Source: a bacterium (GTDB lineage Bacteria; Zhuqueibacterota; Zhuqueibacteria; Oceanimicrobiales; Oceanimicrobiaceae). From it: a DNA stretch of 46,227 nt. Location of the stretch: the NCBI GenBank assembly GCA_046757165.1, contig JBHHXT010000019.1, forward strand, positions 1 to 46,227, given 5' to 3'. Positions within the stretch are counted from its first letter, which is position 1; the number at the start of each line of letters is the position of its first letter. Positions 12,512 to 33,584 of the stretch are shown here, in pieces. The notes under the pieces were generated by a model. The model saw only the letters and a program-made list of their open reading frames with translations, searched no databases and had not been told where the DNA came from. The position numbers and the translations under genes were made by a program.

Positions 12512-13132
12512 CTACTTCTTCGGAAACGTCGTCTTGAAGACATAATCCCACAAAGGCGAGCTCACACCATAGCCCAGCTCCTCATCCTGATAATGATGCC
12601 GGATATGATGGCGCTTCAACCACTGCCCGATACGGCTCTTCATGGGAAAGTGGTGGGTGGCATAATGTATGGTATCATAGCACACATAGCCAAACAGGAA
12701 ACCCGGGAAAAAAGCAAACAGATACGTTTGCTCCAACAGCAACCCAAAGACGCCGTAGAAGAAAAGAGCGAGCGGGATGCTGATGACCGGCGGCATGACC
12801 AGGCGGCGCGAGTCGTTAGGATAGTCATGATGAACGCCATGCATCAGGTGCAGAATGTACCTGGCCACAGCGCTCGAGCCTTCAAGGTGGAACACGAAGC
12901 GATGGATAACATATTCAGTAAACGTCCACGCAAGTATCCCGCCCAGGAACAGGCTGAGCAGCGCCAGAACAGATAGCGTGGGGTGCGCGAGGGCGCGATA
13001 GACCAGAAACGCAATCACCGGTAAATAGAGAACGACAGGAACACTTGGATGCACATACGAAAGCCGGTCCAGAAATCGATTCTCGAATAATGGAACAGAT
13101 TCATCTTTGTTGGAAACGTATCGCTGGGCCAT
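12512..13132 (-). CDS. Sterol desaturase/fatty-acid 2-hydroxylase family protein
   Basis: His boxes EYVIHRFVFH, HGVHH, YDTIHYATHH and HHIRHH; RLVMPP; YGVSSPLWD. Confidence 0.9.
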   Translation of the reverse strand: MAQRYVSNKDESVPLFENRFLDRLSYVHPSVPVVLYLPVIAFLVYRALAHPTLSVLALLSLFLGGILAWTFTEYVIHRFVFHLEGSSAVARYILHLMHGVHHDYPNDSRRLVMPPVISIPLALFFYGVFGLLLEQTYLFAFFPGFLFGYVCYDTIHYATHHFPMKSRIGQWLKRHHIRHHYQDEELGYGVSSPLWDYVFKTTFPKK

Positions 13133-13267
13133 TTTTTCCTCCTACCTTGCAAAACCGGGGATCCACAACCCGGAAGTCATTGATTATTCATCTAAAAGAC
13201 ACGATTCAATTCTAAGGGCATTGACATCTTTATAACCGCACTTTCGCACGAATTATTTCACACCGTT

Positions 13268-13489
13268 TTATTTTCGTCTTTTTGAATTCAGCCAGAAGGC
13301 GATGAACGCGACAACGCTGAAAGGAAGGAGAGAGAGGAATGCAGCGCTAAGATAGTAGGTATTCAGCACTTTTGTGACAGAGGAGCCAAAACAACTGGGA
13401 CACCCCTGAACACTTTCAGAAGTCAGCAACAAGAAAGACAAAACGTAGATGGCGCTCAAACTTCTGACGAAGCGCTTCAAAACGGACAC
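13268..13489 (-). CDS. Small membrane protein with CPxC motif, last gene of the oxidase operon
   Basis: GTG start with GAGG RBS; signal/TM segment, CPSCFG, second TM, basic tail. Confidence 0.65.
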   Translation of the reverse strand: MSVLKRFVRSLSAIYVLSFLLLTSESVQGCPSCFGSSVTKVLNTYYLSAAFLSLLPFSVVAFIAFWLNSKRRK

Positions 13490-13506
13490 CGTATCAACCT
13501 CATGAG

Positions 13507-14220
13507 TTAGCTCAAATAAACCAGGACAAACAACACTGGCCAGATGGCGACGACAAAGTACCAGTACAAACCACAGAGTTCAGCCAGCGTGTCGCTGCGG
13601 GTGGAATAGGTCCTGGCTAAAGATTTCTTCAGGACGATGAGCAGGAACACCATCGCACCCGCCACATGCAGGCCATGACATCCGATCAGGGCATAAAATA
13701 TTCCGCCATAGGTGCTGGAGGTCAAAGTCAAACCGAACCGGATCAGGCGAACCCATTCGGAGCCTTGAATCAAGAGAAACGTGGCCCCTAAGCCGGCGGT
13801 CGCAATCAACCATTTGGTCATGGTCATGGACAGGTCTGCCCGGCTGGCCCGCATCGCTCGATTCATCGTGAAACCGCTGGCAAGCAGAAAAACCGTATTG
13901 ACCAGGGTCACCACGAGGGGAAGCATGGGTTGACCCGCAGGGGGCCATGTTTGGCTGTTGGCCCGCAGGATGAGAAAAACGCTGATCAGCCCGCCAAAAA
14001 ACATCACTTCCGCGCCGATGAACATGAGCAGCCCCAGAACCCCCTTGTTGACCGGCGCTTGCTGTACCGAAGCGAAACCGGGGTCTGCCGCGCCCTTCAA
14101 ACCATCGCTCTCGAGGCCGGAACTATGGCCATCATTTATCTCGGGCGTTGTCATTCTGGTCGCCATCGCTGCTGCCAATATTTGGGTTGATGTGTTTTCA
14201 TGTTTAGCGATTGTAGACAA
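13507..14220 (-). CDS. ctaE: Heme-copper oxidase subunit III (second paralog)
   Basis: GLLMFIGAEVMFFGGL, NTVFLLASG, FYALIGCHGLHV, LYWYFVVAIW. Confidence 0.88.
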   Translation of the reverse strand: MSTIAKHENTSTQILAAAMATRMTTPEINDGHSSGLESDGLKGAADPGFASVQQAPVNKGVLGLLMFIGAEVMFFGGLISVFLILRANSQTWPPAGQPMLPLVVTLVNTVFLLASGFTMNRAMRASRADLSMTMTKWLIATAGLGATFLLIQGSEWVRLIRFGLTLTSSTYGGIFYALIGCHGLHVAGAMVFLLIVLKKSLARTYSTRSDTLAELCGLYWYFVVAIWPVLFVLVYLS

Positions 14221-14485
14221 TATCTGGTATGAGCGAAATGGTCATCCCGATGAAGAGCAAGACCGGAATGATGGCAATGTAACGAATCAGTCGCTGCTCG
14301 AATTTTAGATGCATGAAATAGACGGCCACCAGTCCCGCTTTGACGGCAGCGACGAAAAAAATAAATGCCACTGTCAGTGGCGGTGAAAATGGCAAAAGAA
14401 CCGCTCCGACGCTGACAAACAGCAAAAGAAGCAGCCACGCCCAGACAGCGACATAGTTCGGATGCTCATGTTGAGTGTGTGACAT
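14204..14485 (-). CDS. ctaF: Cytochrome c oxidase subunit IV (CtaF/CyoD-like)
   Basis: Three TM helices; KAGLVAVYFMHLKFE signature. Confidence 0.85.
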   Translation of the reverse strand: MSHTQHEHPNYVAVWAWLLLLLFVSVGAVLLPFSPPLTVAFIFFVAAVKAGLVAVYFMHLKFEQRLIRYIAIIPVLLFIGMTISLIPDIVYNR

Positions 14486-14594
14486 ATTCTAACTCCTTTC
14501 GGGTAAACTTCGGCAGTTGGCTGTTGGCCTCGAGCTTGCTGATAAGGTTATTTGTCATCTCTTATTTTTTGTTCAACTGCTCAACAGCGGCCCC

Positions 14595-15185
14595 TCAATA
14601 CGAAAGATAAAGCAACGGAAACAGGAAAATCCAAACGACGTCAACGAAATGCCAGTACAGCCCTGCGTATTCCACCCGCTGCTGCGTTCTCGGCCAGAGC
14701 GTGCCTCTGACGGCCATAACGAAGAGCGCAAAGTTTGCGATAATGCCTGCCAGGACATGCAGGCCATGCAGCCCGGTCAAGGCGTAATAAAAGGCCCAAA
14801 ACATGCCGGACAGCGGCGTGAATCCCTGAGAGATTTCTATCGAGTATTCAACCGCTTTGACGCCCAGGAATGTCACTCCGAGTAAGACCGTGAACAAAAG
14901 GTAGGTCCGGGCCGACTTCCTATCTTCTTCGTCAATCGCCTGAAAGGCTTTTACCATGGTCAAGCTGCTGGTGAGCAGAATGACGGTATTGAAGGTGCCA
15001 ATTGCTGTGCTAACATGCTGAGCCATGTCAGCCCACGTGCCGGCACTGGCCATGCGGTAGAGAATATAGATCGCCAGGAAGCCGCCAAATACCATGATTT
15101 CAGAGGCTAAGAACCACCAGAGCGCGATTTTGCCTGACGGCGCTTGAGTTTGCGGATATTCCTCAACGGCGGAAACGGTGCCCAT
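14595..15185 (-). CDS. ctaE: Heme-copper oxidase subunit III (first paralog)
   Basis: WWFLASEIMVFGG, NTVILLTSS, TGLHGLHV, GLYWHFVDVVW. Confidence 0.92.
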   Translation of the reverse strand: MGTVSAVEEYPQTQAPSGKIALWWFLASEIMVFGGFLAIYILYRMASAGTWADMAQHVSTAIGTFNTVILLTSSLTMVKAFQAIDEEDRKSARTYLLFTVLLGVTFLGVKAVEYSIEISQGFTPLSGMFWAFYYALTGLHGLHVLAGIIANFALFVMAVRGTLWPRTQQRVEYAGLYWHFVDVVWIFLFPLLYLSY

Positions 15186-15243
15186 TCTGCTATCTCCCTT
15201 GTCTTAACATTAACGGTTCGGGTTTATTCTTCTTCAAGCTATG

Positions 15244-15322
15244 TCTGGTTCCAACGCTCTGCGTCCCTTTACTTGACGCGGAGCGTCAAATACTGGTTCC
15301 CACGCGGAGCGTGGGAACCAGA
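15244..15322. repeat. REP-like palindrome cluster between oxidase subunits I and III
   Basis: CTGGTTCCCACGC-GGA-GCGTGGGAACCAG (15293-15321), TTGACGC-GGA-GCGTCAA (15273-15289) and a partial copy at 15244. Confidence 0.7.
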
Positions 15323-15368
15323 CCGTGTAGGTGCGTGATCATCATACACCAAATCCTGCACCGAAGGA

Positions 15369-17102
15369 CTAGGCCGCGGCCGCGGTTTTCTTCGGTTCAT
15401 TCTGCGGCTGCCAATCCCGGCCATTGCCAGGCGAACTGTACTCGTACGGGCCATGATAAACCCTGGGCAGGGTAGCAAAATTGCCATGAGGGGGCGGCGA
15501 AGGCGCAGCAGCCCACTCCAGCGTGTTCGCCTGCCAGGGATTATCCTCCGCTCGTTTCCCTTTGAACAGGCTCCAGAAGAAATTGATCACAAAGGGAATC
15601 TGCCCGATGAAAAGCAGAATCGCGGCGATGGTGATGAGCTGATTGATCGGGCCAAAGGGCTTGAGAAAGTCATATTGCAACGGGTTGTAAATACGGCGCA
15701 TGTGGCCACCCATGCCCAGCACGAACATCGGGATAAACGTCAGGTTGAAAAAGATGATCGTAAACCAAAAATGGATTTTCCCGAGCCCCTCGTTCATCAT
15801 GCGGCCAAACATTTTCGGGAACCAGAAGTAGAGCCCGGCGAAGCCAGCCAGAAGGGCTGACGGAAAAAGGGTAAAATGAAAGTGAGCGACGACAAAATAA
15901 GTATCGTGAATGTAGATATCCACCGGCGCCGAGCCATTGAATATGCCTGTCACCCCACCGACGATGAACGTCAGAATCGTGCCGAGCGCAAAGAGCATCG
16001 GTGTGGGAAAACGCAGTGAACCGCCCCATAGCGTTGCCATGAAAGCAAAGATTACGATGGCAAATGGAACCGAGATCAGGATGGTGGTAATGCTGAAGGG
16101 CATCACCAACCGTGGGTCTATGCCGCTGACGAACATGTGATGCGCCCAGACCACGAAGCTGAGAACCCCGGCCACCAGGACTGAGTAGATAATGGTTTTG
16201 TACCCGAAAATCGGCTTGCGAGCAAATACTGGCAAGATTTCGAACAAAGCGCCCAGGCCGGGCAACAGGATCACATAAACCTCCGGATGCCCAAAAAACC
16301 AAAACAGATGCTGCCACAACAACGGGTCCCCGCCTCGATCAGCGATGAAGAACCCGGTGCCAACTGTACGGTCCAGCAGGAGCAAAATCGCCCCCGCGAT
16401 AAGCGGGCCGACGGACAGCATAAAAAGAACCGATGCAGTGATCTGCATCCAGACCATCAGGGGCAACCGGTACATCGTGAGGCCGGGGGCCCGCATGGTG
16501 ATGGTGGTAGTGAGGAAATTGATGCCGCCCATCAGGAAGGAGGTAAATTCCAACGCCAGTCCCAGTATCCAGAGATTCAGGCCCCAATTCACTCCCGTGA
16601 GCACGGGGTCTGCTGATAAGGGTGCGTAGCCCGTCCAACCAGCGGCCGCCGCACCCCCCGGGACGAAAAAGGAGGCGATCATCAACACCGAGCCGAGAAA
16701 GATAGTCCAGAAAGACATCATGTTTAGCCTCGGAAAGGCCATATCCGGTGCGCCAACCATCAACGGCAGCAGAAAGTTACCGAAGGCGCCCAGCAACAAT
16801 GGCATGGCGACGAAAAACACCATCAGGGTACCGTGCATCGTCACCAGTGCGTCATAGAATTCCGGCGGAATGATGCCGTTGACCACCGTCGGTTCCGGAA
16901 TCCAACCGGCACCGGGGACCGCAGTTTCAGGCCACGCGAGCTGCCAGCGCATGTAGTAGGCCAGCAGACCGCCAACGACAGCCATAAACAGGCCGAGAAA
17001 CATGTACTGCTTGGCAATGACTTTGTGGTCGATCGAAAAAATGTACGTGCGAAAAAAACTCAGCTCCTTGTGCTCAGCCGCGTGACGGACCTCGTCAGCC
17101 AT
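15369..17102 (-). CDS. ctaD: Heme-copper oxidase subunit I, A1 type, with atypical K-channel
   Basis: TMHG, PDMAFPRLN, WFFGHPEVY, WAHHM, AHFH and MRR: all six His ligands and the active-site Tyr are present. Confidence 0.96.
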   Translation of the reverse strand: MADEVRHAAEHKELSFFRTYIFSIDHKVIAKQYMFLGLFMAVVGGLLAYYMRWQLAWPETAVPGAGWIPEPTVVNGIIPPEFYDALVTMHGTLMVFFVAMPLLLGAFGNFLLPLMVGAPDMAFPRLNMMSFWTIFLGSVLMIASFFVPGGAAAAGWTGYAPLSADPVLTGVNWGLNLWILGLALEFTSFLMGGINFLTTTITMRAPGLTMYRLPLMVWMQITASVLFMLSVGPLIAGAILLLLDRTVGTGFFIADRGGDPLLWQHLFWFFGHPEVYVILLPGLGALFEILPVFARKPIFGYKTIIYSVLVAGVLSFVVWAHHMFVSGIDPRLVMPFSITTILISVPFAIVIFAFMATLWGGSLRFPTPMLFALGTILTFIVGGVTGIFNGSAPVDIYIHDTYFVVAHFHFTLFPSALLAGFAGLYFWFPKMFGRMMNEGLGKIHFWFTIIFFNLTFIPMFVLGMGGHMRRIYNPLQYDFLKPFGPINQLITIAAILLFIGQIPFVINFFWSLFKGKRAEDNPWQANTLEWAAAPSPPPHGNFATLPRVYHGPYEYSSPGNGRDWQPQNEPKKTAAAA

Positions 17103-17116
17103 ACTCTCCTCCTCAT

Positions 17117-17800
17117 TTAGTTGTCATTATCTGCAGGTTGCCAGTTCTCCTGCACCCAACTGGCGTAGGCTTGCTCAGAATGAACATAAAGAAAGCCGCG
17201 CATGGTGTAATGGCCATATCCACACAACTCGGCGCAAGCGATCTCATACTTGTCGGTTTCGGTCGCCTGGAACCAGGCTTCGATTTCACGGCCAGGCACC
17301 AGGTCCTGCTTCAGGCGCAGAACCGGGACAAAAAAACTGTGGATAACATCCTGGGAAGTGAGAATAAGCTTCACCACTTTGTTGGCCGGCACGTGAAGGT
17401 CGTTCTCCAGCGTGAGATCGTCGTCGCTACCAAACATGCCGTCCGGCCCGGGGTAGGTCATGATCCAGTTGAACTGCTTGCCCTCCACTTGAATGGTCAC
17501 CGCGCTGACTGGCATGTCCCCTTTGATTTGGTCATAGGCTTTCGCGCCGGCAAAATCAATCCACAGGTCGAACACGAGCACGATGGCAGCTGGAATCAAG
17601 ATCCAGCCCGTTTGTGGCCACGCCCTGCCGTGCACAAATTTCGCCCGCTGCCCCTCTCGACGACGGTACCGAAACAGAAAATAGAAAATCAATCCCTCGC
17701 CTAGCAGAAATCCGATTCCGACGATCCAGAAGATCAGATAGAACACCGAGTCAATCTCACCGCCAAAGGTCGAGATGTTCTGCGGGAACAAATCAAACAT
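17117..17800 (-). CDS. ctaC: Cytochrome c oxidase subunit II (CuA), no fused cytochrome c
   Basis: Two TM helices; DVIHSF and CAELCGYGHYTM CuA motif. Confidence 0.95.
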   Translation of the reverse strand: MFDLFPQNISTFGGEIDSVFYLIFWIVGIGFLLGEGLIFYFLFRYRRREGQRAKFVHGRAWPQTGWILIPAAIVLVFDLWIDFAGAKAYDQIKGDMPVSAVTIQVEGKQFNWIMTYPGPDGMFGSDDDLTLENDLHVPANKVVKLILTSQDVIHSFFVPVLRLKQDLVPGREIEAWFQATETDKYEIACAELCGYGHYTMRGFLYVHSEQAYASWVQENWQPADNDN

Positions 17801-18103
17801 GGTCTCACACCTCCAGGTTTATTCGTATCTTGCTCGAGCCAATGCACCAAACGCGATTCCGCCCCTGGCGATTATATTACATCTTCAATGCAAACAAATA
17901 CTTGCTTTATAGAAAGTCGATGGGACGATCTTGGCTCCTAAAGTGGCAAACCGTGTCAAAGGAACCAGATGGACAAATTCGGACTGCGTTATCTGCTTTA
18001 AATGGTGAATAAGATAAGCGAATTGCGGATGAATGTCAAGTATTTTTTGACGATAATGTCATCTTATAGTCACATGAAGCTTGATGGCCACCCTGCAAAC
18101 GGC

Positions 18104-19285
18104 CTATTGGGCCTCATGACAGTAGCCGCAGAACCCTGCGCCCGCCTGGCGTGTGTTGGTATGACAGGAGTAGCACAGGGCATTGTCATCATCATGCAGA
18201 GACGCGTCATCCCCGATCTGGTCTGCGAAGCCCGTCTCGTGGGTTTTGGGGTTGGTCCCCTGCACGCCGTCAAAATCGGTGTGGCAGAGTAAACAGGTGG
18301 GATCATCCCCCTCGGTGCTATGGCAGGCCGCGCAATTTTCAATGTCTCGCCTGGCGAGCTCAGCATGGCGGCCGCCGCCGGTGCCGACGACCCCTGCAAG
18401 TGCCCCCCAATCGGGCCCGCCATGCCAGACAGGTTTGCCCGCCACGTCCACGCCTTCGGCTTCGTGGCACGTCTGGCAAAAATTCTGAGTTTCGTGACAG
18501 ACGGCACACTCCTGCGACCGGCCCTGCGCTTCAAGAGGATGAGTGAGTCTAAAATTGAGATCGTGCACGCGGGAGATAAGCAGACCCTTTGTGCCCCCGC
18601 CAAGCGAGGGGAACATCGGTGTTTGTGTATCGAGCACGGGCGCCGAGGCCGTCATGAACAAAGACGCCCCCTGATGACACTCTGCGCAATCGTTTCGCGT
18701 GTGACAAACGCTGCACGCCTCCTGATCGATACGGGCCAGATTTTTGTGTGTCACAAGATAATCCGAGCTATGGTCAACCGGCCTGAGGGTGAGGGTATTG
18801 GTGTGGCAGTTCACGCACTCGAGTGTCGCCTGCTGGTTGTTGTGACACCTGGCGCAGTCTGGCATCTGTGCCTTACTGTGATCGTCAGCGTAGTCTACCC
18901 TGTCCAAATTCTTGTGGCAGGTTTCGCAGGCCACTTTCTGCTCGAGAACATGAAATTCATGGTTGAACAGAAGCGTGTTTTCGACAGCGGGCAGCGGCTG
19001 CCGGGTCTCCTCGTCCTCGAAATGGCAGAGCGTGCACGCTTCTTCATCCTCGACCTCATGGCATCCCTGACACTCTTCCTTTGCAGGCAGCAAATTATCG
19101 CTGGCCAGCGTGCTCTGCTCAGCACGGGTATGACAATCCGCACAAGCTGTCTCTACCTCCTTCTGGTGAAACTTGTGCGAAAATTTGATCACTTCTTTTG
19201 ATTGCTTCAGCGGACTTTGGGATAAAACGTGCCAGCTAAGTGCCAATGTGATGGTTATCACTCCCAACCAGAACTTGTTCAGCAT
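18104..19285 (-). CDS. Periplasmic 14-heme cytochrome c (c3/c7-like repeats)
   Basis: Signal peptide; 14 CxxCH counted; FSHKFH and FNHEFH distal-His motifs. Confidence 0.9.
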   Translation of the reverse strand: MLNKFWLGVITITLALSWHVLSQSPLKQSKEVIKFSHKFHQKEVETACADCHTRAEQSTLASDNLLPAKEECQGCHEVEDEEACTLCHFEDEETRQPLPAVENTLLFNHEFHVLEQKVACETCHKNLDRVDYADDHSKAQMPDCARCHNNQQATLECVNCHTNTLTLRPVDHSSDYLVTHKNLARIDQEACSVCHTRNDCAECHQGASLFMTASAPVLDTQTPMFPSLGGGTKGLLISRVHDLNFRLTHPLEAQGRSQECAVCHETQNFCQTCHEAEGVDVAGKPVWHGGPDWGALAGVVGTGGGRHAELARRDIENCAACHSTEGDDPTCLLCHTDFDGVQGTNPKTHETGFADQIGDDASLHDDDNALCYSCHTNTRQAGAGFCGYCHEAQ

Positions 19286-19345
19286 AATCCCTCACCGGTT
19301 TGCCTCAGATTCGTTTTCTTCCTCATCATGTCCCTGCTCGACAGC

Positions 19346-20614
19346 TTATAAGCTGCGCTTGAAAAACCAATAGCTTGCTTTGACAAAGATTCGAAAATCG
19401 CTGCTCGAGAACCGATTGCGGATGCCCTGGCCGAGGATGTCGATGGCAAGCTGCTTGCGCGGACGGTAGTTGAGACCGACACTCCCGGTCAGGGAGGTGT
19501 GGGTCTCGAGGTCGTCATCGAACAGCGTGTAACGAGCCAGCCCGGTCGTGGCTACCAGTCCCAGTTTCGGTGTCACGGGATAATTCAAGGCGGCGTATGC
19601 GCCGTTGTTTTGGCCGCCATACCCTTTTCTGAAATTGTAGCCGAGCGAGCCGTACTTTCCTCTAACGCCCAAACCAAAACGAACCGTTTCGTCGCCGTCA
19701 TATTTTTGAACGGCGAGATTTCCGTTCAGGAACCAGCGCTGGCCGAACCGGTAACTGCCGCGCACGCCGAACTCCTGTGTGGTGTTTTGCTCAAACACCG
19801 TGAAGATGGAATTTGCTTCGATGAGTGGTGCACGGTGGATAAATTCACCACTCAATGTCAGTTTATCAGAAGCTGCCAGCCGGAGTTCAACCTGCCCGCG
19901 GCGAACACGCTCTTGCTCGAGGTCATAATCGAGCCGGCCATAGAGGTTCAACTTGCGCGCGAAACGCCGGTGGAGGTCCAGGCCAAGCAGCCGTTGCTCC
20001 AAACTCTCGAAGGTGATTTTTCTGCCGGTATACCGACCGGGCGCTGAGTAAGCAGCAGGCGCCCGGTTTCTTTGCATGAAACTAACCAGGACCTTCGTAC
20101 CGGCCAGCTTCGTGGTACTCACCCGGAAGCCGAACGCATGTCGGTCATCCCAGTTGCCGATTTCGATTTCATTCGAAAACGGCACCAGGATGCCTGCGAA
20201 GCCTCCTATCTTGACACTCTCTCCGATGCGGAAGTTGAGATCGATGCCGTCAACGGTGCCGTATGCAACGCCAGAATAGACCCGCTGCCGACCCAGGCGA
20301 ACACGCTGGACCAGGCCCTTGCGTGCGTGCCACTGAAGGTAAGTGTGATAGATTCGCGGAATGGGATCGTCCTCCGCGGACTTTGCCAAATCTTGTGACA
20401 GCAGGCCATAAAAGTGAAAAGACACGCGCCTGGAAGCAAGATTCCCAATGGTGACCTGTGCTGTTTGGTACACCCGTGCGTGCGTCTCGGAAAGCGAGTC
20501 TGCCGGGTTTCTCTCCCAGGAGTAGACCGTGGTGGAGAAGCGACCACTCACCGACTGCCCATAGACCTGCGTGGTCAGAGCTAACGCGAGCAAAATGTAG
20601 ATCAATCTCTTCAA
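19346..20614 (-). CDS. Outer-membrane beta-barrel (porin of a porin-cytochrome complex)
   Basis: Signal peptide; amphipathic strands throughout; RVRLGRQ..VDG motif; terminal strand RIFVKASYWF; flanked by two multiheme cytochrome genes. Confidence 0.8.
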   Translation of the reverse strand: MKRLIYILLALALTTQVYGQSVSGRFSTTVYSWERNPADSLSETHARVYQTAQVTIGNLASRRVSFHFYGLLSQDLAKSAEDDPIPRIYHTYLQWHARKGLVQRVRLGRQRVYSGVAYGTVDGIDLNFRIGESVKIGGFAGILVPFSNEIEIGNWDDRHAFGFRVSTTKLAGTKVLVSFMQRNRAPAAYSAPGRYTGRKITFESLEQRLLGLDLHRRFARKLNLYGRLDYDLEQERVRRGQVELRLAASDKLTLSGEFIHRAPLIEANSIFTVFEQNTTQEFGVRGSYRFGQRWFLNGNLAVQKYDGDETVRFGLGVRGKYGSLGYNFRKGYGGQNNGAYAALNYPVTPKLGLVATTGLARYTLFDDDLETHTSLTGSVGLNYRPRKQLAIDILGQGIRNRFSSSDFRIFVKASYWFFKRSL

Positions 20615-20671
20615 GACCCTGGTCCCCTTTCTTATGTGTGAAGTGCGTCGTACGTCCGACTCACCTTATTT

Positions 20672-20826
20672 CTTGCGCCTCCTGGCTGCAAAGGGAGGCG
20701 CAAGGTCGTCAAGGAGGTAGATAATGAATTGAGCAGCATTGAGCTTCACTCGTCATTTGTTGTCACTTGCCTTGCGGGCGTCATTGAGCAGGCAAGGACC
20801 AAATGACGCCCGCAGGGCAAATGACG
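20672..20826. repeat. Two strong intergenic hairpins
   Basis: 11-bp perfect stem 20672-20682/20694-20704; 19-bp stem with one mismatch 20767-20785/20802-20820. Confidence 0.65.
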
Positions 20827-20901
20827 GCGCGAAGCGCTAAATGACTTTTTTCGCAGCAAAGTCTGCAAAAAAACCCAGGCTCTCTCTGGTCAGGACGCCC
20901 G

Positions 20902-21771
20902 TCAAAACATGGGGAATTCCTGACCAAAAACATTGACCAACCCGTTTGCGTGTTTGCTTTTGTCACTGATGTTTCCTTGTGAATCCATCACCAGGTTGTG
21001 ACAATTGACACAGGCGGTCAGCTCAAACGGGTTGTGCCCGGTGGGTGGCAAGTCATGGCACGTGCCACAGGTGACCGTTTCAGGGTTGGTCCACTCCGGT
21101 GAGGCCTGATTGCCTACGATGGAGTCAGCCGAGTAAATAAAGGCAAAGCTTGACTGTTCCTTTGCTAAACTCCAATTGCCATGACAGTAGACATTTTCAC
21201 AGGACAAGCTATTATCGTTCCACCGTGGCTCTGCCTCGTCGAGCAGCGCATTTTTGCTGAACACCACCTCAGCGGGTAATGGTGAATCGATGTGCTCGGG
21301 AGCGTCAAACGTCCCCGGAACGACGTGACAAGTCGAACAGTCGAAGCCATTGCTGAAAGATGCGCCAGAGAGATGAGGTGTATGGGCCCCCACGCCTCGG
21401 ACACCGCTGCTGAAGTTGTCTGCCAGATCTGTTGGGGGAGCGCCGGTTTGATTGTCGACACCGCCATGGCAGACCGTGCAATCCTCCGGCGTAGACGGAT
21501 GACAGGTCAAGCATGAACGATTAGCGATCCCCCCGCTGTAATCGACACCGTGACACTGCTGACAGTTTGCCAGATCCCATCCTGAGCTTTGCAAGAATAC
21601 GCCGTGAAATTCCGGTGCGCCATCGCTTATCCAGTCCCGGGGGTGAACGGACAGTTCTGGTTCCAGATTAGCCGGGACGGGTTCTCTCAGTTCGCTGCAT
21701 CGGTTGAGAAAAAGAGCCAGAAAGAACCATGGGAAAATGAGCCGCAAATCCATTCTGATGTGCATGGTCAT
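20902..21771 (-). CDS. Multiheme cytochrome c, probable lipoprotein, CxxxxCH/CxxCH (Geobacter-type) domain
   Basis: Six CxxCH plus CENVYCH; hydrophobic stretch ending FLNR-C. Start uncertain (21810, 21771 or 21753). Confidence 0.85.
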   Translation of the reverse strand: MTMHIRMDLRLIFPWFFLALFLNRCSELREPVPANLEPELSVHPRDWISDGAPEFHGVFLQSSGWDLANCQQCHGVDYSGGIANRSCLTCHPSTPEDCTVCHGGVDNQTGAPPTDLADNFSSGVRGVGAHTPHLSGASFSNGFDCSTCHVVPGTFDAPEHIDSPLPAEVVFSKNALLDEAEPRWNDNSLSCENVYCHGNWSLAKEQSSFAFIYSADSIVGNQASPEWTNPETVTCGTCHDLPPTGHNPFELTACVNCHNLVMDSQGNISDKSKHANGLVNVFGQEFPMF

Positions 21772-21899
21772 TCTATAAGTTATGTTCGAGTCACATTCCT
21801 GGCGCAACAAAGTCGCTCAGGCATCTTCTTGCAAGAAATCAAAAAGCAATAACATAGCAGCAATGTACAAGCGTTTCACCTCGATGTTCGGCATTCAAA

Positions 21900-22393: not shown

Positions 22394-22984
22394 TTAGTCA
22401 TGCTTGTATTTCAACGGGTAGTGCTTGTGGGTGCCATCATCTTTTCTTTTCTCAAAGTCGAACGGCTCATCCTTGTTGAAAAATGGACTCTTTTCATTGT
22501 GGCACACCTCCGTGCACGATTTGCCGGTAACAGGGCTGTTGAGACCCACTTTCACCACCTCGGAGCGCTTGTAGTTTTTGTTTTTCAAATGCATATATTG
22601 CTCCTTGACGTACTCACTCCCCGCACCATGGCACATTTCGCAGCTTACGCCGGCAAGTTGTGGCGTCTCCTCGAGACTGACAAAGCCGCCGGACTTGCCA
22701 TACCCCGTTGTATGACAGGGCAGGCACTCTGTGTCCTGAGTATAATCCTTTGCAGGGTCCAGACCCGCTTGCTTCTTGGCCTCAGCCCGCTCACCGGCTT
22801 TCAAAATGTCGAAGGCTTTGGCCATATTCGTCGTTTTCCAGGACTTGAACTGTTTGAGATGGCACTTCTTGCAGCCCTTGGTTCCGACGAAACTGTATTC
22901 ATGCCCGGCCTGGTCCTTTTGTGCCAGCAGCACAGGCGGCAGAATAAGAACGTATGCAAGCACAGCTCTCAAAATCACGTTCAT
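22394..22984 (-). CDS. Tetraheme cytochrome c554/c552-family protein
   Basis: Signal peptide; FVGTKGCKKCH, CLPCHTTG, GVSCEMCHG and CTEVCH (CX3CH). Confidence 0.85.
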   Translation of the reverse strand: MNVILRAVLAYVLILPPVLLAQKDQAGHEYSFVGTKGCKKCHLKQFKSWKTTNMAKAFDILKAGERAEAKKQAGLDPAKDYTQDTECLPCHTTGYGKSGGFVSLEETPQLAGVSCEMCHGAGSEYVKEQYMHLKNKNYKRSEVVKVGLNSPVTGKSCTEVCHNEKSPFFNKDEPFDFEKRKDDGTHKHYPLKYKHD

Positions 22985-23005
22985 GATCGACCTCCGAATT
23001 GATTG

Positions 23006-24268
23006 TTAGTTTAACTGAGAGTTGTTCGTCCTCAAGAGCGCGTGGAGAAACGCGTACATATTCCTCATCTCATCCCCGCTAAATTGAGGCCATCGCATCA
23101 CTTTTTCGGTGATCCTTGCCTCCATAACGGGTGCATGATTCCACATGATTTGCGCCATATCGATAGGAGATGCGACGCCTCTCGACCGGGAGAGGTCCGG
23201 GGCAAAGTCACCTCCTTTGGCATCGGAGCCATGACAGTTGACGCACCCCTTTTCTGCGAAGACCGCTCGCCCGAGCTCAGAATCGCCGGGCTTGTCCCTG
23301 AACTTCAGAAAGTAGAGGTAGGCAATTAAATCAGCCATTTCTTTTCCGCCAAACCTTGGCCAATTGATCTGTTGTTCTTCCATGATCGATGCCATTTCAG
23401 AGCCATGATTCCACATCACTCCAGCGATTTCCGTTACGCTGTAATCCCATTCCAAATCCCCGAGATCCGTACCGATGTCCTGACCTTCACCATGCAGGGC
23501 ATGGCAGTCCAGACAGCTCTTGTTTTTGAAGACTTGTTGGCCGCGATTGGGATTCCCCGGAGACATATAAACGCGCTCCCTTTCTGTACCCTGGCTCGCC
23601 TCTCGGATATACGCACTCAGGTCGACAATTTCGCCCCTTTCGAATCTGGGGCGCTGCAAACCCATTTTCAGGATTTTCTTTTCCATTTCAGGGCCGTGAT
23701 TCCACAAAGCCTGCGCCATATACAGCGGTGAAATGTACTTCGCCAGCTTGTCAAAGGCGGGAGCCAGATCGCCGCCTTTGCCGGCGATGGAATGACAAAC
23801 CAGACAACTCTTTTCTTTCACCAGGATTTTTCCACGATACAGATCGCCGGGCTCACCCAGGTAGCGCAAATAATACAAGTATGCGATCAACTCGACCATT
23901 TCGGTGCGGGAGAATTCAGGATAGGACAAATCCAGTTCTTGCATGCGCCTGAGCATTTCAGGAGCGTGATTCAACATGATGCCGGCAAGCTGGAGGAAGC
24001 TGCCGTAGAAGTGTTTTTGCGCCAGATCCGGGCCGATATCCCCGCCATCGCCTTTGATGGCGTGACAGTTTACGCATCCTTTTTGTTCAAAAACAAACCG
24101 CCCTTTCAGCGGATTTTCGACCATGAACAGCTCCTGGGCTGAGAGGCTCAAAGGCATGGCAAGAAAAGAACATAGCAGAACCATCAAGCCACGCTCTGGA
24201 AGGGATTCCCCCTGTCCGACCTTATTCTTCTGGGTGTATTTCATTTTTTCCTGCTCCAAAGTGATCAT
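23006..24268 (-). CDS. Cytochrome c with four tandem monoheme domains
   Basis: Four repeats of G..(V/L)F..K.CxxCH...G.(I/L)(G/A)P..L...(M/L)(W/L)NH..(E/V)M. Start uncertain (24268, 24244 or 24184). Confidence 0.85.
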   Translation of the reverse strand: MITLEQEKMKYTQKNKVGQGESLPERGLMVLLCSFLAMPLSLSAQELFMVENPLKGRFVFEQKGCVNCHAIKGDGGDIGPDLAQKHFYGSFLQLAGIMLNHAPEMLRRMQELDLSYPEFSRTEMVELIAYLYYLRYLGEPGDLYRGKILVKEKSCLVCHSIAGKGGDLAPAFDKLAKYISPLYMAQALWNHGPEMEKKILKMGLQRPRFERGEIVDLSAYIREASQGTERERVYMSPGNPNRGQQVFKNKSCLDCHALHGEGQDIGTDLGDLEWDYSVTEIAGVMWNHGSEMASIMEEQQINWPRFGGKEMADLIAYLYFLKFRDKPGDSELGRAVFAEKGCVNCHGSDAKGGDFAPDLSRSRGVASPIDMAQIMWNHAPVMEARITEKVMRWPQFSGDEMRNMYAFLHALLRTNNSQLN

Positions 24269-24497
24269 GTTTCTCGCCTCTTTGCAGTCCGACGAACACA
24301 TAAGTCAGGATGGCTGCCAGGGTAAAAAAAACCGGGATGGCGACGATGCTGATGCCAACAGAAGCGTTGAGCGCATCGTTGAGTCTGTGCGCCACACGAA
24401 TCAGGTTGAAAATCCAAACAGCCACGCTCGAGACAAAAACCCAGATCAAGGACACAGAGGCAAGTTGGAGAAAATAAATTGTGTTTGACCGTTTCAT
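24222..24497 (-). CDS. Small 2-TM membrane protein, possible accessory subunit
   Basis: ATGA overlap with the NrfD-family stop; two hydrophobic helices. Confidence 0.65.
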   Translation of the reverse strand: MKRSNTIYFLQLASVSLIWVFVSSVAVWIFNLIRVAHRLNDALNASVGISIVAIPVFFTLAAILTYVFVGLQRGEKHDHFGAGKNEIHPEE

Positions 24498-25861
24498 TGC
24501 TCCACTCCTGCTCGTTTGCTCGCGGACTCCGGCAAAGGCTGCTCAGGCAAATACGATTGCAACCGGCTGGCAACTTCTCGCACACTGTGTTGCCGGCCTT
24601 CCTGAATTTCCCAAATTGAAACCAACGGAAAGTACTTGGAGAATAAAACATAGCCCAGAACAAACACCGCAAGGCCCCAGGCAAAGAGACTCCACTCGGT
24701 GAGCGAGGGGATGTACATTCCGGTCGGATAGGGTAATCTTGGATTCGCCAGAGACGGCACGACAATGATGAGGCGCTCCAGCCACATGCCGATCACAACG
24801 GCAATCGAGGCCACCAGAATCCCCGGAATCTTCTGTGTTTTCGGGTTGGCGAGAATGGTTATCGGAACCACGAAATTGCAAAAGATCATCAGCCAGAAAA
24901 ACGGCGACATCTTTCCGACGAACTTGTAGAGGAACACTCTCATCTCGTTAGGCTCGTGCCCGTAATATCCCGTCAGATATTCAGAGAAAGTAAAATAGCC
25001 CCACAACATCGACATGATCAGCAGCAGCAGCCCCAAATACTTGAAATGAATCTCTTTCAGGTAGGGCTCCAGCTTGAATGCCTTGCGAAACGCAATCATG
25101 GCAATCAACAAGGCCGCGATACCGGAGAAAATGGCGCCGACCACAAAATAGGGACCGAAAATCGTGCTGTGCCAACCGGGCTGAATGGTCATAGAAAAGA
25201 TGAACGAAATGACTGTGTGAACAGAAACGGCAATCGGAATCACCATGACCATCAGGATGTTGATGGCTCTTTCGAGCACTTTCTTCTGGTGTTCCGTGCC
25301 CTGCCAGCCCCAGGCCAGGAATTCGTACAGCCAGCGGGGCCGCGTGCCGCGATCCCGCAGGATGGCGATATCCGGAATCATGGGAAGATACAAATAGACC
25401 GTACTGGCGCCAAAATAAGCGGTGATACTGGTCACATCCCAGAGCAGGGGGGACTGCAGCCGCCCATCGGTGAAAAGATGCATCATGCGGTCAGGCCGGC
25501 CCAGATCGAGGATGGGATGCAGGCCTCCGATCGCCAAAACGATGGCCGTGATGACCTCTGCCATCCGGGTGATCGGACGCCGCCATTCCGCTTTCGAGAG
25601 TCTCAGAATCGCCGAAATCAGGGTTCCAGCATGGCTGATACCAATGAAGAAGACGAAGTTGATAATATAAAACCCCCAGGAGACGGGCTGATTGAGCCCG
25701 GTGACGCCGAGGCCAAGCACAACTTGCCTGATGTAAGTATAGACAGAGAAAGCGATGATGGCTAACAGGACACAAACCGTGATGTAAAACCCCTTGCCCG
25801 TGTGCTCGATGGGACGTATCAGCACTTCATCTTCGAATGAATCCTTGCGCAGTTCAGACAT
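24494..25861 (-). CDS. nrfD: NrfD/PsrC-family quinone-interacting membrane subunit (ActC/QrcD-like)
   Basis: WGFYIINFVFFIGISHAGTLISAIL, WRRPITRMAE, DLGRP, SPLLWD, SVHT, GMWLER. Confidence 0.92.
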   Translation of the reverse strand: MSELRKDSFEDEVLIRPIEHTGKGFYITVCVLLAIIAFSVYTYIRQVVLGLGVTGLNQPVSWGFYIINFVFFIGISHAGTLISAILRLSKAEWRRPITRMAEVITAIVLAIGGLHPILDLGRPDRMMHLFTDGRLQSPLLWDVTSITAYFGASTVYLYLPMIPDIAILRDRGTRPRWLYEFLAWGWQGTEHQKKVLERAINILMVMVIPIAVSVHTVISFIFSMTIQPGWHSTIFGPYFVVGAIFSGIAALLIAMIAFRKAFKLEPYLKEIHFKYLGLLLLIMSMLWGYFTFSEYLTGYYGHEPNEMRVFLYKFVGKMSPFFWLMIFCNFVVPITILANPKTQKIPGILVASIAVVIGMWLERLIIVVPSLANPRLPYPTGMYIPSLTEWSLFAWGLAVFVLGYVLFSKYFPLVSIWEIQEGRQHSVREVASRLQSYLPEQPLPESASKRAGVEQ

Positions 25862-26545
25862 TTATTCCACCTCTGACAGATAAAAAACTTTCGGTTCGGT
25901 GCCCAAATCTTCCAGCAATTGAAAGGCGCGCGGGTTTCTCCTGAGCTTGCTGACCTGGCTTTTGGGATCGTCGAGATCGCCAAAGTAAATCGCTCCGGTC
26001 GGGCAGCTTTCCATACAGGCCGGGATGTAATCTCCCTCTCGCAGCTCGCGGCCTTCAACAGCAGCCTGCTCTTTGGCTATCTGCAACCGGTGAATACAAA
26101 AGGTACATTTTTCCACCACGCCGGCCGGGCGCAGCGACACATCCGGATTGCAGGCCGCTCGCATTTCCTCCGGCCATTCGGGTCGGCTCCAGTTAAATGA
26201 TTTCACCGTGTAGGGACAGGCGACCTGGCAGTATCGACAGCCGATGCATTGCGGAAAAATCTGCGTGACGAGGCCCTCATCATTGAGATAGGTCGCACGA
26301 ACCGGACACACTTTGGTACACGGCGGGTTATCACATTGAAAACAGGGCCGAGGCATGTAGCGGACTTTCACATCAGGAAATTCCCCCTCGTAAGTCGTGA
26401 GGATATCCATCCAAAGCATGGTGCGCCCGCGGTCCGATTCATCCGGCCCGACGATGGCGACGTTGTTTTCGATCTTGCAGGCCGCGACACATTCCCCGCA
26501 GCCGGTGCACTTGTTCAAATCGATGACCATACCCCATCTTGGCAT
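25862..26545 (-). CDS. 4x[4Fe-4S] ferredoxin subunit (NrfC/PsrB/QrcC-like)
   Basis: Start MPRWGMVIDL at 26545; CTGCGECVAAC, CFQCDNPPCTKVCP, CIGCRYCQVACP, CTFC...CMESCP. Confidence 0.93.
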   Translation of the reverse strand: MPRWGMVIDLNKCTGCGECVAACKIENNVAIVGPDESDRGRTMLWMDILTTYEGEFPDVKVRYMPRPCFQCDNPPCTKVCPVRATYLNDEGLVTQIFPQCIGCRYCQVACPYTVKSFNWSRPEWPEEMRAACNPDVSLRPAGVVEKCTFCIHRLQIAKEQAAVEGRELREGDYIPACMESCPTGAIYFGDLDDPKSQVSKLRRNPRAFQLLEDLGTEPKVFYLSEVE

Positions 26546-26546
26546 A

Positions 26547-29030: not shown

Positions 29031-29090
29031 ACAATCGCTCCTGAATCTGGCTCTTATTCGTCATGGTCTAATCCACCACCTGTCCTCAAG

Positions 29091-29585
29091 TCAACGGTGA
29101 CACGCATAACAATCATTGGAAACCTCGCGCGTTTCATGACAATCCATGCACCATGCCATCGTTATTTCCTGAACGGGTGCGCCCACCGGCGTTGTCAGGG
29201 TTCCGACGTCGCCATGGCAGACCGTACACTCCAACTCGCCAAGCCTGACGTGCCGGCGATGAGAGAAGTAGGCGTAGTCCGCCACGCGATAGATTTGCCG
29301 CCAGGGGATTTTCGTCTTTTCGGTAACAAATTGAAGTAACGCCAGTTCTGCCTCGCTTTCGGTCATGGCTTCCTCATGGCACTCGGCGCAAAGATCGATA
29401 TTCGGGATAGAAGCCCGTGGATTCTCTTCGGCGTATTGATGGCAGTCCAGGCACTCCATGTCATTCTCTTCTACATGTATGCTGTGGCTGTAGGCAATGG
29501 GCTGCTTCGTGTCCTGCCTTTTGAGGAACCCGGCTACCATGAATGTCAACACAACGGCGAGAACAATGGATAGGGTCTTTTTCAT
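29091..29585 (-). CDS. Membrane-anchored pentaheme cytochrome c (ActA/QrcA-like)
   Basis: N-terminal TM; QPIAYSHSIH; five CxxCH; FSHRRH; TMAWCMDCH; NDCYACH. Confidence 0.92.
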   Translation of the reverse strand: MKKTLSIVLAVVLTFMVAGFLKRQDTKQPIAYSHSIHVEENDMECLDCHQYAEENPRASIPNIDLCAECHEEAMTESEAELALLQFVTEKTKIPWRQIYRVADYAYFSHRRHVRLGELECTVCHGDVGTLTTPVGAPVQEITMAWCMDCHETREVSNDCYACHR

Positions 29586-33560: not shown

Positions 33561-33584
33561 CCAGGTTAGTTGGAGGGGTTTTTC

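What the first reader, a model, noticed from the sequence alone, without database searches (positions are those of the whole stretch)
15369..17800. A1-type heme-copper oxidase that appears to have lost the whole K proton channel
Seen, by manual alignment with R. sphaeroides numbering: the D-channel is intact (Y33, N121, D132, N139, N207, E286), as are Y288 and all His ligands. Helix VIII reads ISVPFAIVIFAF instead of IAVPTGIKIFSW (T359F, K362V, S365A). Helix VI gives S299F (PGLGALFE), and the subunit II entry Glu101 aligns to Gln (PQTGW). Known: K362 mutants of A-family oxidases lose almost all O2 turnover but keep peroxidase-type activity. Five concerted changes across two genes argue against sequencing error. 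Inference: a D-channel-only enzyme, or one using another oxidant (H2O2, NO, N2O) or very high-potential donors from the adjacent conduit.
Basis: partly seen in the sequence, partly recalled or inferred. Interest (0 to 1): 0.88.

Follow-up and report, generated by a model that had tools for sequence, protein, structure and literature searches.

The report
Cytochrome oxidase lacking the K proton channel
This is an intact, well-conserved cytochrome c oxidase that belongs to a large group of bacterial enzymes which have lost one of the two standard proton-supply channels and rebuilt the top of the other, so it is a natural test of whether that channel is really needed.

Summary
coxA (15369-17102, minus strand) and coxB (17117-17800, minus strand) encode an A-family heme-copper oxidase. 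All heme and CuB histidines, the cross-link Tyr, Glu286, the CuA site and the listed D-channel residues are present. The K-channel positions read S299F, T359F, K362V and S365A in subunit I, and E101Q in subunit II (HMMER alignments to R. sphaeroides and Mycobacterium structures).

It is not an error or a pseudogene. The same losses occur in all 240 listed database relatives from two searches. Orthologues in 9 of 40 related genomes keep a five-gene operon. dN/dS is about 0.05-0.10.

The K-less enzymes form one clade nested among K-bearing A1 oxidases, so the loss is secondary. This Glu is found in 55 of 60 clade members and 0 of 113 K-bearing sequences.

It is most likely still an O2 reductase fed through a remodelled D-channel. 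H2O2 or NO as the oxidant is not excluded. The adjacent porin-cytochrome cluster is not a conserved partner. K-less A-family oxidases have been noted in print for other lineages, so this is a new variant of a known kind.

The parts
17117..17800 (-). coxB, subunit II (227 aa, P0002). It has two N-terminal TM helices and a CuA cupredoxin domain, with no fused cytochrome c. The K-channel entry Glu (R. sphaeroides E101) is Gln63 (codon 17612-17614).
   Evidence: PF00116; TIGR02866 CoxB, 152.6 bits, above the 147.7 cut-off.
15369..17102 (-). coxA, subunit I (577 aa, P0001). It is A1-like, with the GHPEVY motif.
   Evidence: E 1.8e-132 to solved A-family subunit I chains; PF00115, 474.7 bits; TIGR02891, 607.3 bits, below its 670.75 cut-off.
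16044..16073 (-). Helix VIII stretch holding the lost K-channel positions: S344 (R. sphaeroides A356), F347 (T359), V350 (K362) and A353 (S365).
16242..16244 (-). F287, the equivalent of K-channel S299 in helix VI.
   Evidence: (0 of 120 close relatives have Ser here: L 102, M 11, F 7).
16536..16550 (-). Helix IV 'LEFTSF' stretch. E185 replaces R. sphaeroides S197 and F189 replaces D-channel S201. This is a clade-specific remodelling of the top of the D-channel.
   Evidence: direct alignment; E in 55 of 60 clade members and 0 of 113 K-bearing; LEF/MEF motif in 119 of 120 close relatives.
14595..15185 (-). coxC-a, a short subunit III-like protein (196 aa).
   Evidence: PF00510; (conserved in all 8 orthologous loci).
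14204..14485 (-). Small subunit IV (93 aa).
   Evidence: TIGR02229 caa3_sub_IV, 49.9 bits, above the 37.25 cut-off.
13507..14220 (-). coxC-b, a second subunit III-like protein (237 aa as listed; the true start may lie further in).
18104..21810 (-). Context only. A 14-heme cytochrome (18104-19285), an outer-membrane beta-barrel (19346-20614) and a 6-7-heme cytochrome (20902-21810), together a porin-cytochrome-like cluster. A 303-bp gap separates it from coxB.
   Evidence: (conserved next to the oxidase only in G004).
22394..29585 (-). Context only. A Qrc/ACIII-like quinol:cytochrome c module: a QrcA-like c7 cytochrome, a molybdopterin-like subunit, an FeS subunit and an NrfD subunit, plus a four-domain class I cytochrome c and a c554-like cytochrome.
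   Evidence: (QrcA/B/C/D-like matches, all below the equivalog cut-offs).

Best explanation
The five genes at 13507-17800 (coxB-coxA-coxC-coxIV-coxC') encode a functional A-family cytochrome c oxidase. It belongs to a large, multi-phylum, monophyletic clade that secondarily lost the canonical K proton pathway: K362, T359 and S299, the conserved S/N at 365, W366, and in most members subunit II E101. Most likely it still reduces O2 to water at an unchanged heme a3-CuB-Tyr site.

All substrate protons, including those of the reductive half-cycle that normally come through the K-pathway, would be delivered through a remodelled D-pathway (D120...E274). The upper part of that pathway has changed: S201 became Phe, and a new buried Glu (E185, at the S197 position) appeared one helical turn below. 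This would make it a single-input-channel A-type oxidase, just as B- and C-family oxidases work with one channel.

Shown: the residue losses, their clade-wide conservation, the coupled helix IV change, purifying selection, and the derived position in the tree. Inferred: O2 as the substrate, the D-pathway as the sole route, and a compensating role for E185.
For: 1.

2. The K-less state is universal among relatives. Of the 120 closest clusters, 116 read S-F-[I/M/V/L] at 356/359/362; the other 4 were regex misses. None of the 120 has Ser at 299. All 120 relatives of the second subclade lack K362, and none has Ser at 299 (A 119, C 1).

3. It is one clade. 60 of 187 leaves group with FastTree support 0.91. 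27 of 72 rows group with IQ-TREE SH-aLRT 95, inside a 45-row group (support 100) that includes K-bearing lineages and the genome's own K-bearing paralogue.

4. There is a coupled change. E at the S197 position occurs in 55 of 60 clade members and 0 of 113 K-bearing sequences. F at S201 occurs in 55 of 55 of the inner clade. The 5 basal K-less members lack the Glu and keep S/T at 201 and Ser at 359, so the Lys was lost first.

5. dN/dS is 0.047-0.102 in the 4 of 8 orthologue pairs where dS was not saturated. pN is 0.09-0.16 in all 8.

6. In 3 of 5 other genomes carrying a clade member (G041 from an isolate, G042, G044) it is the only A-family oxidase. It sits beside cbb3 in G041 and G042 and a distant HCO in G044.

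7. Heme A synthase is present in the genome.

8. There is precedent. K-less COX in acidophilic Fe(II) oxidisers keeps the D-channel (preprint 10.1101/2020.03.01.968255, section 7 read). The A. ferrooxidans aa3 oxidase is described as the O2-reducing end of the chain (PMC2754497, passages read).
Against: In R. sphaeroides, K362M abolishes oxidase activity while leaving peroxidase activity (PMC7601700, passage citing Vygodina 1998). Simple loss of the Lys is therefore not tolerated in a canonical enzyme, and nothing here shows that this enzyme turns over O2. No structure or coordinates were available, so I could not check that E185 faces the D-channel water chain, or that the K region is really dry. 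Replacing S201 with Phe might hinder the D-pathway rather than help it. In this genome's own family the K-less enzyme is accessory. It always occurs with another, K-bearing A-family oxidase, except in one genome that is only 76% complete. A specialised, non-standard role is therefore possible. Two orthologous loci carry an Rrf2-family regulator, and two carry a PilJ-type sensor-domain ORF inside the operon. Either could point to a signal other than O2. No RNA run holding the stretch was listed.
Confidence: 0.58

Rival explanations
1. It is an O2 reductase, but the K-pathway has been replaced rather than lost. In this reading a water chain held by new hydroxyl residues next to the old route carries the reductive-phase protons. 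The candidate residues are S344 (at A356), T339 (at 351) and T340 (T352) on helix VIII, and S307 (at 319) and S315 (at 327) on helix VII. This would resemble the K-analogue of B-family oxidases, which is Ser/Thr/Tyr based.
For: S at 356 occurs in 60 of 60 clade members and 0 of 113 K-bearing sequences (A 73, G 40). T at 351 occurs in 60 of 60, against 19 of 113. S or T at 319 occurs in 52 of 55 inner-clade members, against A in 92 of 113. S at 327 occurs in 55 of 55, against G 79 and S 33 of 113. B-type enzymes have an alternative K-channel without Lys (PMC3084760, Table 2 passage).
Against: The lower half of the route is hydrophobic (F287, F347, V350, A353, and F/M at 366). The entry Glu of subunit II is replaced in 15 of 18 K-less loci. 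No new ionisable residue is conserved there in the window's subclade. No model coordinates were available to test whether the residues connect.
Confidence: 0.2
2. The enzyme no longer serves mainly as an O2 reductase. It uses an oxidant that does not need the K-dependent reductive steps, acting for example as a membrane-bound, D-channel-fed cytochrome c peroxidase (H2O2), or acting on NO.
For: K362M keeps peroxidase activity while losing oxidase activity, and the peroxidase half-cycle uses only the D-channel (PMC7601700, passage read). In this genome family the enzyme is a third, accessory A-family oxidase. An Rrf2 regulator lies beside coxB in G003 and G032, and a PilJ-type sensor-domain ORF lies inside the operon in G032 and G037.
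Against: The cross-link Tyr and the CuB site are retained. The HCO-derived NO reductases described so far lack the Tyr and derive from the B or C families (PMC11214002, passages read). The NOR sequence motifs given in PMC3084760 are not present in P0001 (read). In G041, G042 and G044 it is the only A-family oxidase. The Rrf2 regulator next to the A. ferrooxidans aa3 biogenesis genes is predicted to be iron-responsive, not NO-responsive (PMC2754497 abstract).
Confidence: 0.12
3. It is a slow or poorly coupled oxidase kept for O2 scavenging or as an electron sink for the neighbouring extracellular-electron-transfer cytochromes. The missing K-pathway would simply limit the rate.
For: It lies beside a porin plus 14-heme cytochrome and a Qrc/ACIII-like module in the window and in G004. 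Its status in this family is accessory.
Against: The neighbourhood is not conserved: only 1 of 6 informative orthologous loci shares it, and the porin/multiheme genes were found in 0 of 15 subclade-2 loci, of which one (L063) had FeS/NrfD genes upstream. Strong purifying selection and clade-wide co-variation suggest an optimised rather than a crippled enzyme.
Confidence: 0.08
4. It is an assembly or sequencing artefact, or a decaying gene.
For: None was found.
Against: The frames are open. Four DNA runs hold 98-100% of the sampled words, though these may be the source samples and are not independent. Nine other genomes carry orthologues with the same substitutions. dN/dS is far below 1.
Confidence: 0.01

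Closest known systems
Canonical A1-type aa3 cytochrome c oxidases (R. sphaeroides, P. denitrificans; PDB 1M56, 1AR1)
   Same: The fold and all redox-centre ligands are the same, as are E286, Y288, the D132/N139/N121/N207/Y33 entry of the D-channel, the CuA subunit II and the subunit III/IV partners. Identity to A-family representatives is about 43-47%, and E is about 1e-127 to the solved chains.
   Different: K362V, T359F, S299F and S365A in subunit I, and E101Q in subunit II. W366 and I323 are also changed. S201F and S197E alter the top of the D-channel. There are two short subunit III-like genes.
The genome's own K-bearing A1 paralogue (contig C227, L001)
   Same: It is 56% identical. It has similar N- and C-termini and the same type of subunit II. 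It falls in the same 45-row group of the tree.
   Different: It keeps K362, a Ser at 359, S299 and the subunit II Glu. It also has the heme A synthase gene beside it.
R. sphaeroides K362M mutant (PDB 3OM3/3OMA appear with 'vptgimifsw')
   Same: A hydrophobic residue sits at 362, and the D-channel entry is intact.
   Different: The mutant is an engineered single change that fully inhibits oxidase activity (PMC7601700 passage). The natural enzyme carries at least ten clade-specific co-substitutions.
K-less COX of acidophilic Fe(II) oxidisers and relatives (Degli Esposti et al., bioRxiv 10.1101/2020.03.01.968255) and COX of Ferrigenium straubiae (bioRxiv 10.64898/2026.01.22.701106)
   Same: The Lys is replaced by a hydrophobic residue, the subunit II entry Glu is replaced, and the D-channel is retained. 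The function of the loss is unexplained in both papers (section 7 of the first and passages of the second were read).
   Different: Those enzymes are described as A2-classified and deepest-branching. F. straubiae has a coxBA11C operon. The window enzyme has Glu286 (A1) and is nested among K-bearing A1 lineages, with a coxB-A-C-IV-C' operon. I could not fetch their sequences, so relatedness is untested. The supplements of the preprints, which may list more K-less taxa, were not available.
B-family (ba3) oxidases
   Same: They work with a single proton input channel.
   Different: B-family enzymes keep a K-analogue and lack the D-channel (PMC3084760 passage). Here it is the reverse. The sequence match is also remote (E about 1e-12).

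Membership tests
Heme-copper oxygen reductase superfamily, subunit I | Six conserved His ligands of the low-spin heme, the high-spin heme and CuB | tested here: met
   H90, H272, H321, H322, H407 and H409 align with R. sphaeroides H102, H284, H333, H334, H419 and H421. PF00115 scores 474.7 bits.
Heme-copper oxygen reductase (as opposed to NOR) | Cross-link tyrosine in helix VI (Tyr-I); absence of the NOR motifs | tested here: met
   Y276 lies in GHPEVY. The NOR motifs quoted in PMC3084760 do not fit the sequence. The covalent cross-link itself cannot be tested from sequence.
A-type HCO (Pereira/Sousa definition) | D-channel residues (P. denitrificans D124, N199, N113, N131, Y35, S134, S193, E278) | tested here: inconclusive
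   Seven of the eight are present. The S193 equivalent (R. sphaeroides S201) is Phe189.
A-type HCO (Pereira/Sousa definition) | K-channel residues (P. denitrificans K354, T351, S291, Y280) | tested here: not met
   The residues are V350, F347 and F287. Only the Tyr is kept.
A1 subtype | Glu in helix VI (GHPEVY), rather than the Tyr-Ser motif of A2 | tested here: met
   E274. The genome's A2 enzyme on contig C76 reads YSHPAVY instead.
Cytochrome c oxidase (not quinol oxidase) | Complete CuA site in subunit II | tested here: met
   H..C.E.C...H..M is present. TIGR02866 CoxB scores above its cut-off.
NCBIfam CtaD_CoxA equivalog (TIGR02891) | Score at or above the curated cut-off of 670.75 bits | tested here: not met
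   The score is 607.3 bits. Sources name its relatives only generically.
K-less COX group of acidophilic Fe(II) oxidisers (Degli Esposti et al. preprint) | Lys replaced by a hydrophobic residue and subunit II Glu replaced, with the D-channel kept | tested here: met
K-less COX group of acidophilic Fe(II) oxidisers (Degli Esposti et al. preprint) | A2 classification and deepest-branching position in the A family; sequence relatedness to Acidithiobacillus CoxA | tested here: not met
   The window enzyme has E286 and is nested among K-bearing A1 groups. Direct comparison with Acidithiobacillus sequences was not possible with these tools.
aa3 heme type | Heme A in both sites | not testable with these tools
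   The genome holds one CtaA (heme A synthase) match, on contig C227. This allows heme A but does not show it.

The most novel reading that the evidence does not exclude
The clade is not a dedicated O2 reductase at all. Under this reading it is a natural, membrane-bound, D-channel-fed cytochrome c peroxidase, or an enzyme using another oxidant that bypasses the K-dependent reductive steps. The new buried Glu (E185) would tune the single remaining channel. The enzyme would then be a proton-motive H2O2 (or NO) reductase derived from an A1 oxidase.
Probability: 0.1. Interest if true: 0.9.

Novelty: new variant of a known kind. Interest (0 to 1): 0.6.

Why it matters
The K-pathway is part of the textbook definition of A-family oxidases, and mutating its Lys abolishes O2 turnover in the model enzymes. 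Here is a large, strongly conserved, multi-phylum clade of A1-type enzymes that lacks it and carries a specific co-substitution in the D-pathway (S197E with S201F). That gives a concrete, testable case for how one channel can supply all the protons. It also bears on whether proton pumping survives, and on how the single-channel B and C families may have arisen. In addition, genome annotations that count any 'COX1' as a standard low-affinity proton-pumping oxidase may mis-estimate the energetics of many uncultured bacteria. The claim is only moderately new. K-less A-family enzymes have been noted in two preprints for other lineages, without a mechanism.

Tried and rejected

These served as outgroups and revealed the second K-less subclade, but gave no close named orthologues.

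3. New NOR families (eNOR, sNOR, gNOR, nNOR) were considered and rejected. [quoted passage not shown]

4. The conserved-neighbourhood idea (oxidase plus porin-cytochrome or Qrc/ACIII) was tested and not supported beyond G004.

5. Promoter and terminator scan of 13000-19500: the 4 promoter-like sites did not exceed the shuffle mean of 4.5. One of them lies in the gap upstream of coxB, but it is not used as evidence.

6. Expression: no RNA holder was listed, and read laying was not run.

7. I could not name the independent K-less lineages beyond one archaeal label. I could not obtain Acidithiobacillus or Ferrigenium sequences.

8. Structure prediction was not run, because the tool returns no coordinates and the fold is not in doubt.

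9. Literature searches for a description of this clade found only the papers cited. Subscription journals and preprint supplements were not searchable.

10. In the trees, the K-less group was first defined from the FastTree clade and then re-tested on a subsample with IQ-TREE. The trait columns were not removed from the alignment. Five gappy rows were dropped before the FastTree run.
Full report
**What is at the coordinates**

The minus strand holds coxB (17117-17800, 227 aa) and, 14 nt downstream, coxA (15369-17102, 577 aa). Three more genes follow:
- a 196-aa subunit III-like gene (14595-15185);
- a 93-aa gene matching caa3 subunit IV (14204-14485; 49.9 bits, above the 37.25 cut-off);
- a second subunit III-like gene (13507-14220).

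CoxA matches solved A-family subunit I chains at E about 1e-127 to 1e-132. CoxB has a complete CuA site and no fused cytochrome c.

**Checking the observation**

HMMER alignments to Mycobacterium CtaD and to R. sphaeroides aa3 have no gaps over helices IV-VIII. The 1m56_A row fixes the offset between the two numberings at +12.

| R. sphaeroides position | Reference reads | Window reads | Change |
|---|---|---|---|
| Helix VIII | 'iavptgikifsw' | 'isvpfaivifaf' | T359F, K362V, S365A |
| Helix VI | 'lpafgivshviatf' | 'lpglgalfeilpvf' | S299F |
| Subunit II | 'spleiaw' | 'awpqtgw' | E101Q |

All His ligands, E286, Y288 and Y33/N121/D132/N139/N207 are in place.

One point was missed. In helix IV the window reads 'leftsf' against 'lsgass'. 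The S201 equivalent, a listed D-channel residue (P. denitrificans S193; PMC3084760, passage), is therefore Phe. The S197 equivalent is Glu (E185).

**Not an error, and not alone**

- Among the 120 closest protein clusters (70-86% identity), 116 read S-F-[I/M/V/L] at positions 356/359/362. These clusters carry labels including NC10, Binatia, KSB1, Acidobacteriota, Kryptonia and 'Deltaproteobacteria'. The other 4 were regex misses.
- None of the 120 has Ser at position 299 (L 102, M 11, F 7). 119 of 120 carry the LEF/MEF helix IV motif.
- A second search was seeded with a 54%-identical relative from a Bdellovibrionaceae MAG. It gave 120 further clusters, labelled Bdellovibrionales, Oligoflexia and Myxococcales. 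All lack K362, with Ala (119) or Cys (1) at 299. 102 of 120 carry an E-[F/L]-x-x-F helix IV motif; the other 18 were regex misses.
- The subunit II Glu is present in 38 of 38 loci whose subunit I has the Lys. It is replaced (Q, H, L, I or V) in 15 of 18 K-less loci. The exceptions are L009, G032 and G037.
- dN/dS against orthologues is 0.047-0.102 in the 4 of 8 pairs where dS could be estimated. Synonymous sites were saturated in the other 4. pN is 0.09-0.16 in all 8.

**Phylogeny**

The first alignment held 192 sequences: the window protein, every third close homologue (40 of 120), the 50%-cluster representatives of 480-720 aa, and subunit I from 82 of 83 fetched loci. It gave a 187-leaf FastTree after five gappy rows were dropped.

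In that tree the K-less relatives form one clade of 60 leaves, with support 0.91. At the K362 position they read I 25, M 22, V 7 and L 6.

A 72-row IQ-TREE run (quick search, LG+G4) recovers the group as one branch (27 rows, SH-aLRT 95). Within it are an inner clade of 22 rows (support 100) and a basal group of 5 rows (support 100). The whole group lies inside a 45-row group (support 100) that also holds K-bearing lineages, including this genome's own paralogue.

With the root outside that group, the loss is secondary. Fourteen other K-less leaves are scattered elsewhere in the tree, one cluster labelled as archaeal. This agrees with published statements that the K-channel was lost repeatedly (PMC8239418, passage read).

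Two caveats apply. The group was first defined on the FastTree and then re-tested on a subsample. The trait columns were not removed from the alignment.

**Clade signature**

| Position (R. sphaeroides) | K-less clade | K-bearing sequences |
|---|---|---|
| S197 | E in 55 of 60 | E in 0 of 113 |
| S201 | F in 55 of 55 (inner clade) | S or T in 106 of 113 |
| A356 | S in 60 of 60 | A or G in 113 of 113 |
| T235 | A in 54 of 55 (inner clade) | T in 100 of 113 |
| H472 | F in 57 of 60 | H in 98 of 113 |
| W366 | M, Y or F (inner clade) | W in 110 of 113 |
| I323 | A or T (inner clade) | I in 112 of 113 |
| 327 | S in 55 of 55 (inner clade) | G 79, S 33 of 113 |

The five basal K-less members lack the new Glu, keep S/T at 201 and have Ser at 359. 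The Lys was therefore lost first, and the D-channel top was rebuilt afterwards.

**Genomic setting**

The genome is 6.09 Mb and 99.98% complete. The runs that hold the stretch are labelled hydrothermal vent metagenome; they may be the source of the DNA and are not independent.

It encodes three A-family oxidases:
- the K-less one in the window;
- a 56%-identical A1 paralogue on C227, which keeps the Lys, S299 and the subunit II Glu, and lies beside the only heme A synthase match;
- an A2 caa3 enzyme on C76.

Orthologues of at least 75% identity occur in 7 of 20 other genomes of the same family and in 2 of 2 genomes of another family of the class. The two K-bearing types are more widespread.

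The five-gene order coxB-coxA-coxC-coxIV-coxC' is conserved in the orthologous loci, as far as the contigs reach, and in the second subclade.

In the window, the upstream genes are:
- a 14-heme cytochrome, an outer-membrane barrel and a 6-7-heme cytochrome;
- a cNMP-binding protein;
- a c554-like cytochrome and a four-domain cytochrome c;
- a Qrc/ACIII-like Mo/FeS/NrfD module.

This neighbourhood recurs only in G004, which is 1 of the 6 orthologous loci with at least 4 kb upstream. Elsewhere an Rrf2 regulator lies beside coxB (G003, G032), or a PilJ-domain ORF lies between coxB and coxA (G032, G037).

**Function**

Everything needed for O2 reduction is conserved, and the gene is under strong constraint. 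I checked five genomes carrying a member of the second subclade. In three of them the K-less enzyme is the only A-family oxidase:
- G041, from a Puniceicoccaceae isolate, which also has a cbb3 CcoNO fusion;
- G042, which also has a cbb3 CcoNO fusion;
- G044, which also has a distant HCO.

The fourth genome, G045, has the K-less enzyme plus only a fragmented second A-type. The fifth, G043, has the K-less enzyme together with an intact K-bearing A1 oxidase and cbb3.

Literature gives a precedent and a warning.

- Precedent: COX1 of acidophilic Fe(II) oxidisers has a hydrophobic residue for the Lys and a replaced subunit II Glu, with the D-channel kept (preprint 10.1101/2020.03.01.968255, section 7 read). 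The A. ferrooxidans rus-operon aa3 oxidase is treated as the O2-reducing terminal enzyme (PMC2754497, passages read). Ferrigenium straubiae COX is also reported to lack the K-channel, with the significance unclear (preprint 10.64898/2026.01.22.701106, passages read).
- Warning: K362M in R. sphaeroides fully inhibits oxidase activity while sparing peroxidase activity, which uses only the D-channel (PMC7601700, passage read).

I therefore favour an O2 reductase that feeds all protons through the remodelled D-channel (0.58). The next most likely readings are a cryptic hydroxyl/water replacement route in the old K region (0.20), another oxidant such as H2O2 or NO (0.12), and a slow sink enzyme (0.08). 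The role of E185 is inference. No coordinates were available to test its geometry.

**Comparison with what is known, and novelty**

By the published residue definition of A-type enzymes (D-channel plus the K-channel residues K354/T351/S291/Y280; PMC3084760), this protein fails the K-channel criterion and one of eight D-channel positions. It also scores below the NCBIfam CtaD_CoxA cut-off (607 against 670.75 bits). It nevertheless works like, and descends from, A1 oxidases.

[quoted passage not shown] It differs from the K-less group in the 2020 preprint, which is described as A2-classified and deepest-branching. The window enzyme has Glu286 and a nested position in the tree. Direct sequence comparison was not possible, and the preprints' supplements were closed.

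Seven full-text searches found no description of this clade or of the S197E/S201F coupling. I rate it a new variant of a known kind, with interest 0.6.

Noticed in passing
window 22394-29585 (-): A Qrc/ACIII-like module: a 5-heme QrcA-like cytochrome, an 827-aa molybdopterin-like subunit with a twin-arginine-type N-terminus, a QrcC-like FeS subunit and an NrfD subunit. It is followed by a four-domain class I cytochrome c (431 aa) and a c554-like cytochrome. All NCBIfam matches fall below the equivalog cut-offs, so the module is a variant of unknown specificity.
   Followed up: partly
window 18104-21810 (-): A porin-cytochrome-like set: a 14-heme cytochrome, a 422-aa outer-membrane barrel, and a 6-7-heme cytochrome with a CxxxxCH motif. 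It is conserved next to the oxidase only in G004, where further multiheme cytochromes follow, one of them with a T9SS sorting tail.
   Followed up: partly
window 29697-36356 (-): Two large secreted proteins with T9SS C-terminal sorting domains. One has an ethylbenzene-dehydrogenase-type heme-binding domain and three CxxxCH/CxxxxCH motifs (1001 aa). The other has nine DUF5666 repeats (923 aa).
   Followed up: no
window 15723-15725 (-), F460 of CoxA: The His at R. sphaeroides position 472 (H in 98 of 113 K-bearing sequences) is Phe in 57 of 60 clade members. It is also Phe in 5 of 14 unrelated K-less leaves. This is a possible second covariation with K loss, and it is unexplained.
   Followed up: partly
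window 12512-13132 (-): A fatty-acid-hydroxylase-family membrane protein lies just downstream of the oxidase operon. It is found in the same place in G003 and G004.
   Followed up: partly
L105 14116-14523; L109 14563-15090 and 15950-16843; L110 6357-7256: Rrf2-family regulators lie beside coxB in G003 and G032. A roughly 300-aa PilJ-domain protein is inserted between coxB and coxA in G032 and G037. A. ferrooxidans also has an Rrf2 regulator near its aa3 biogenesis genes (PMC2754497 abstract).
   Followed up: no
P0316 (relative of L013), helix VIII: In the one second-subclade sequence printed (P0316), helix VIII reads 'ipiaemcf', with a Glu directly before the position of the lost Lys. The window protein has Ile there. 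How widely the Glu is conserved was not counted.
   Followed up: no
G045:C1:2149660-2150876 (L126, L130-L134): The second, K-bearing A-type subunit I gene of this Gemmatimonadaceae MAG is split over several frames, with 2 TGA stops in one match. It is either a pseudogene or an assembly error.
   Followed up: no
window 8117-9613 (-): A 498-aa protein with a TackOD1 ('thaumarchaeal output domain 1') match of 190 bits, found in a bacterial genome.
   Followed up: no
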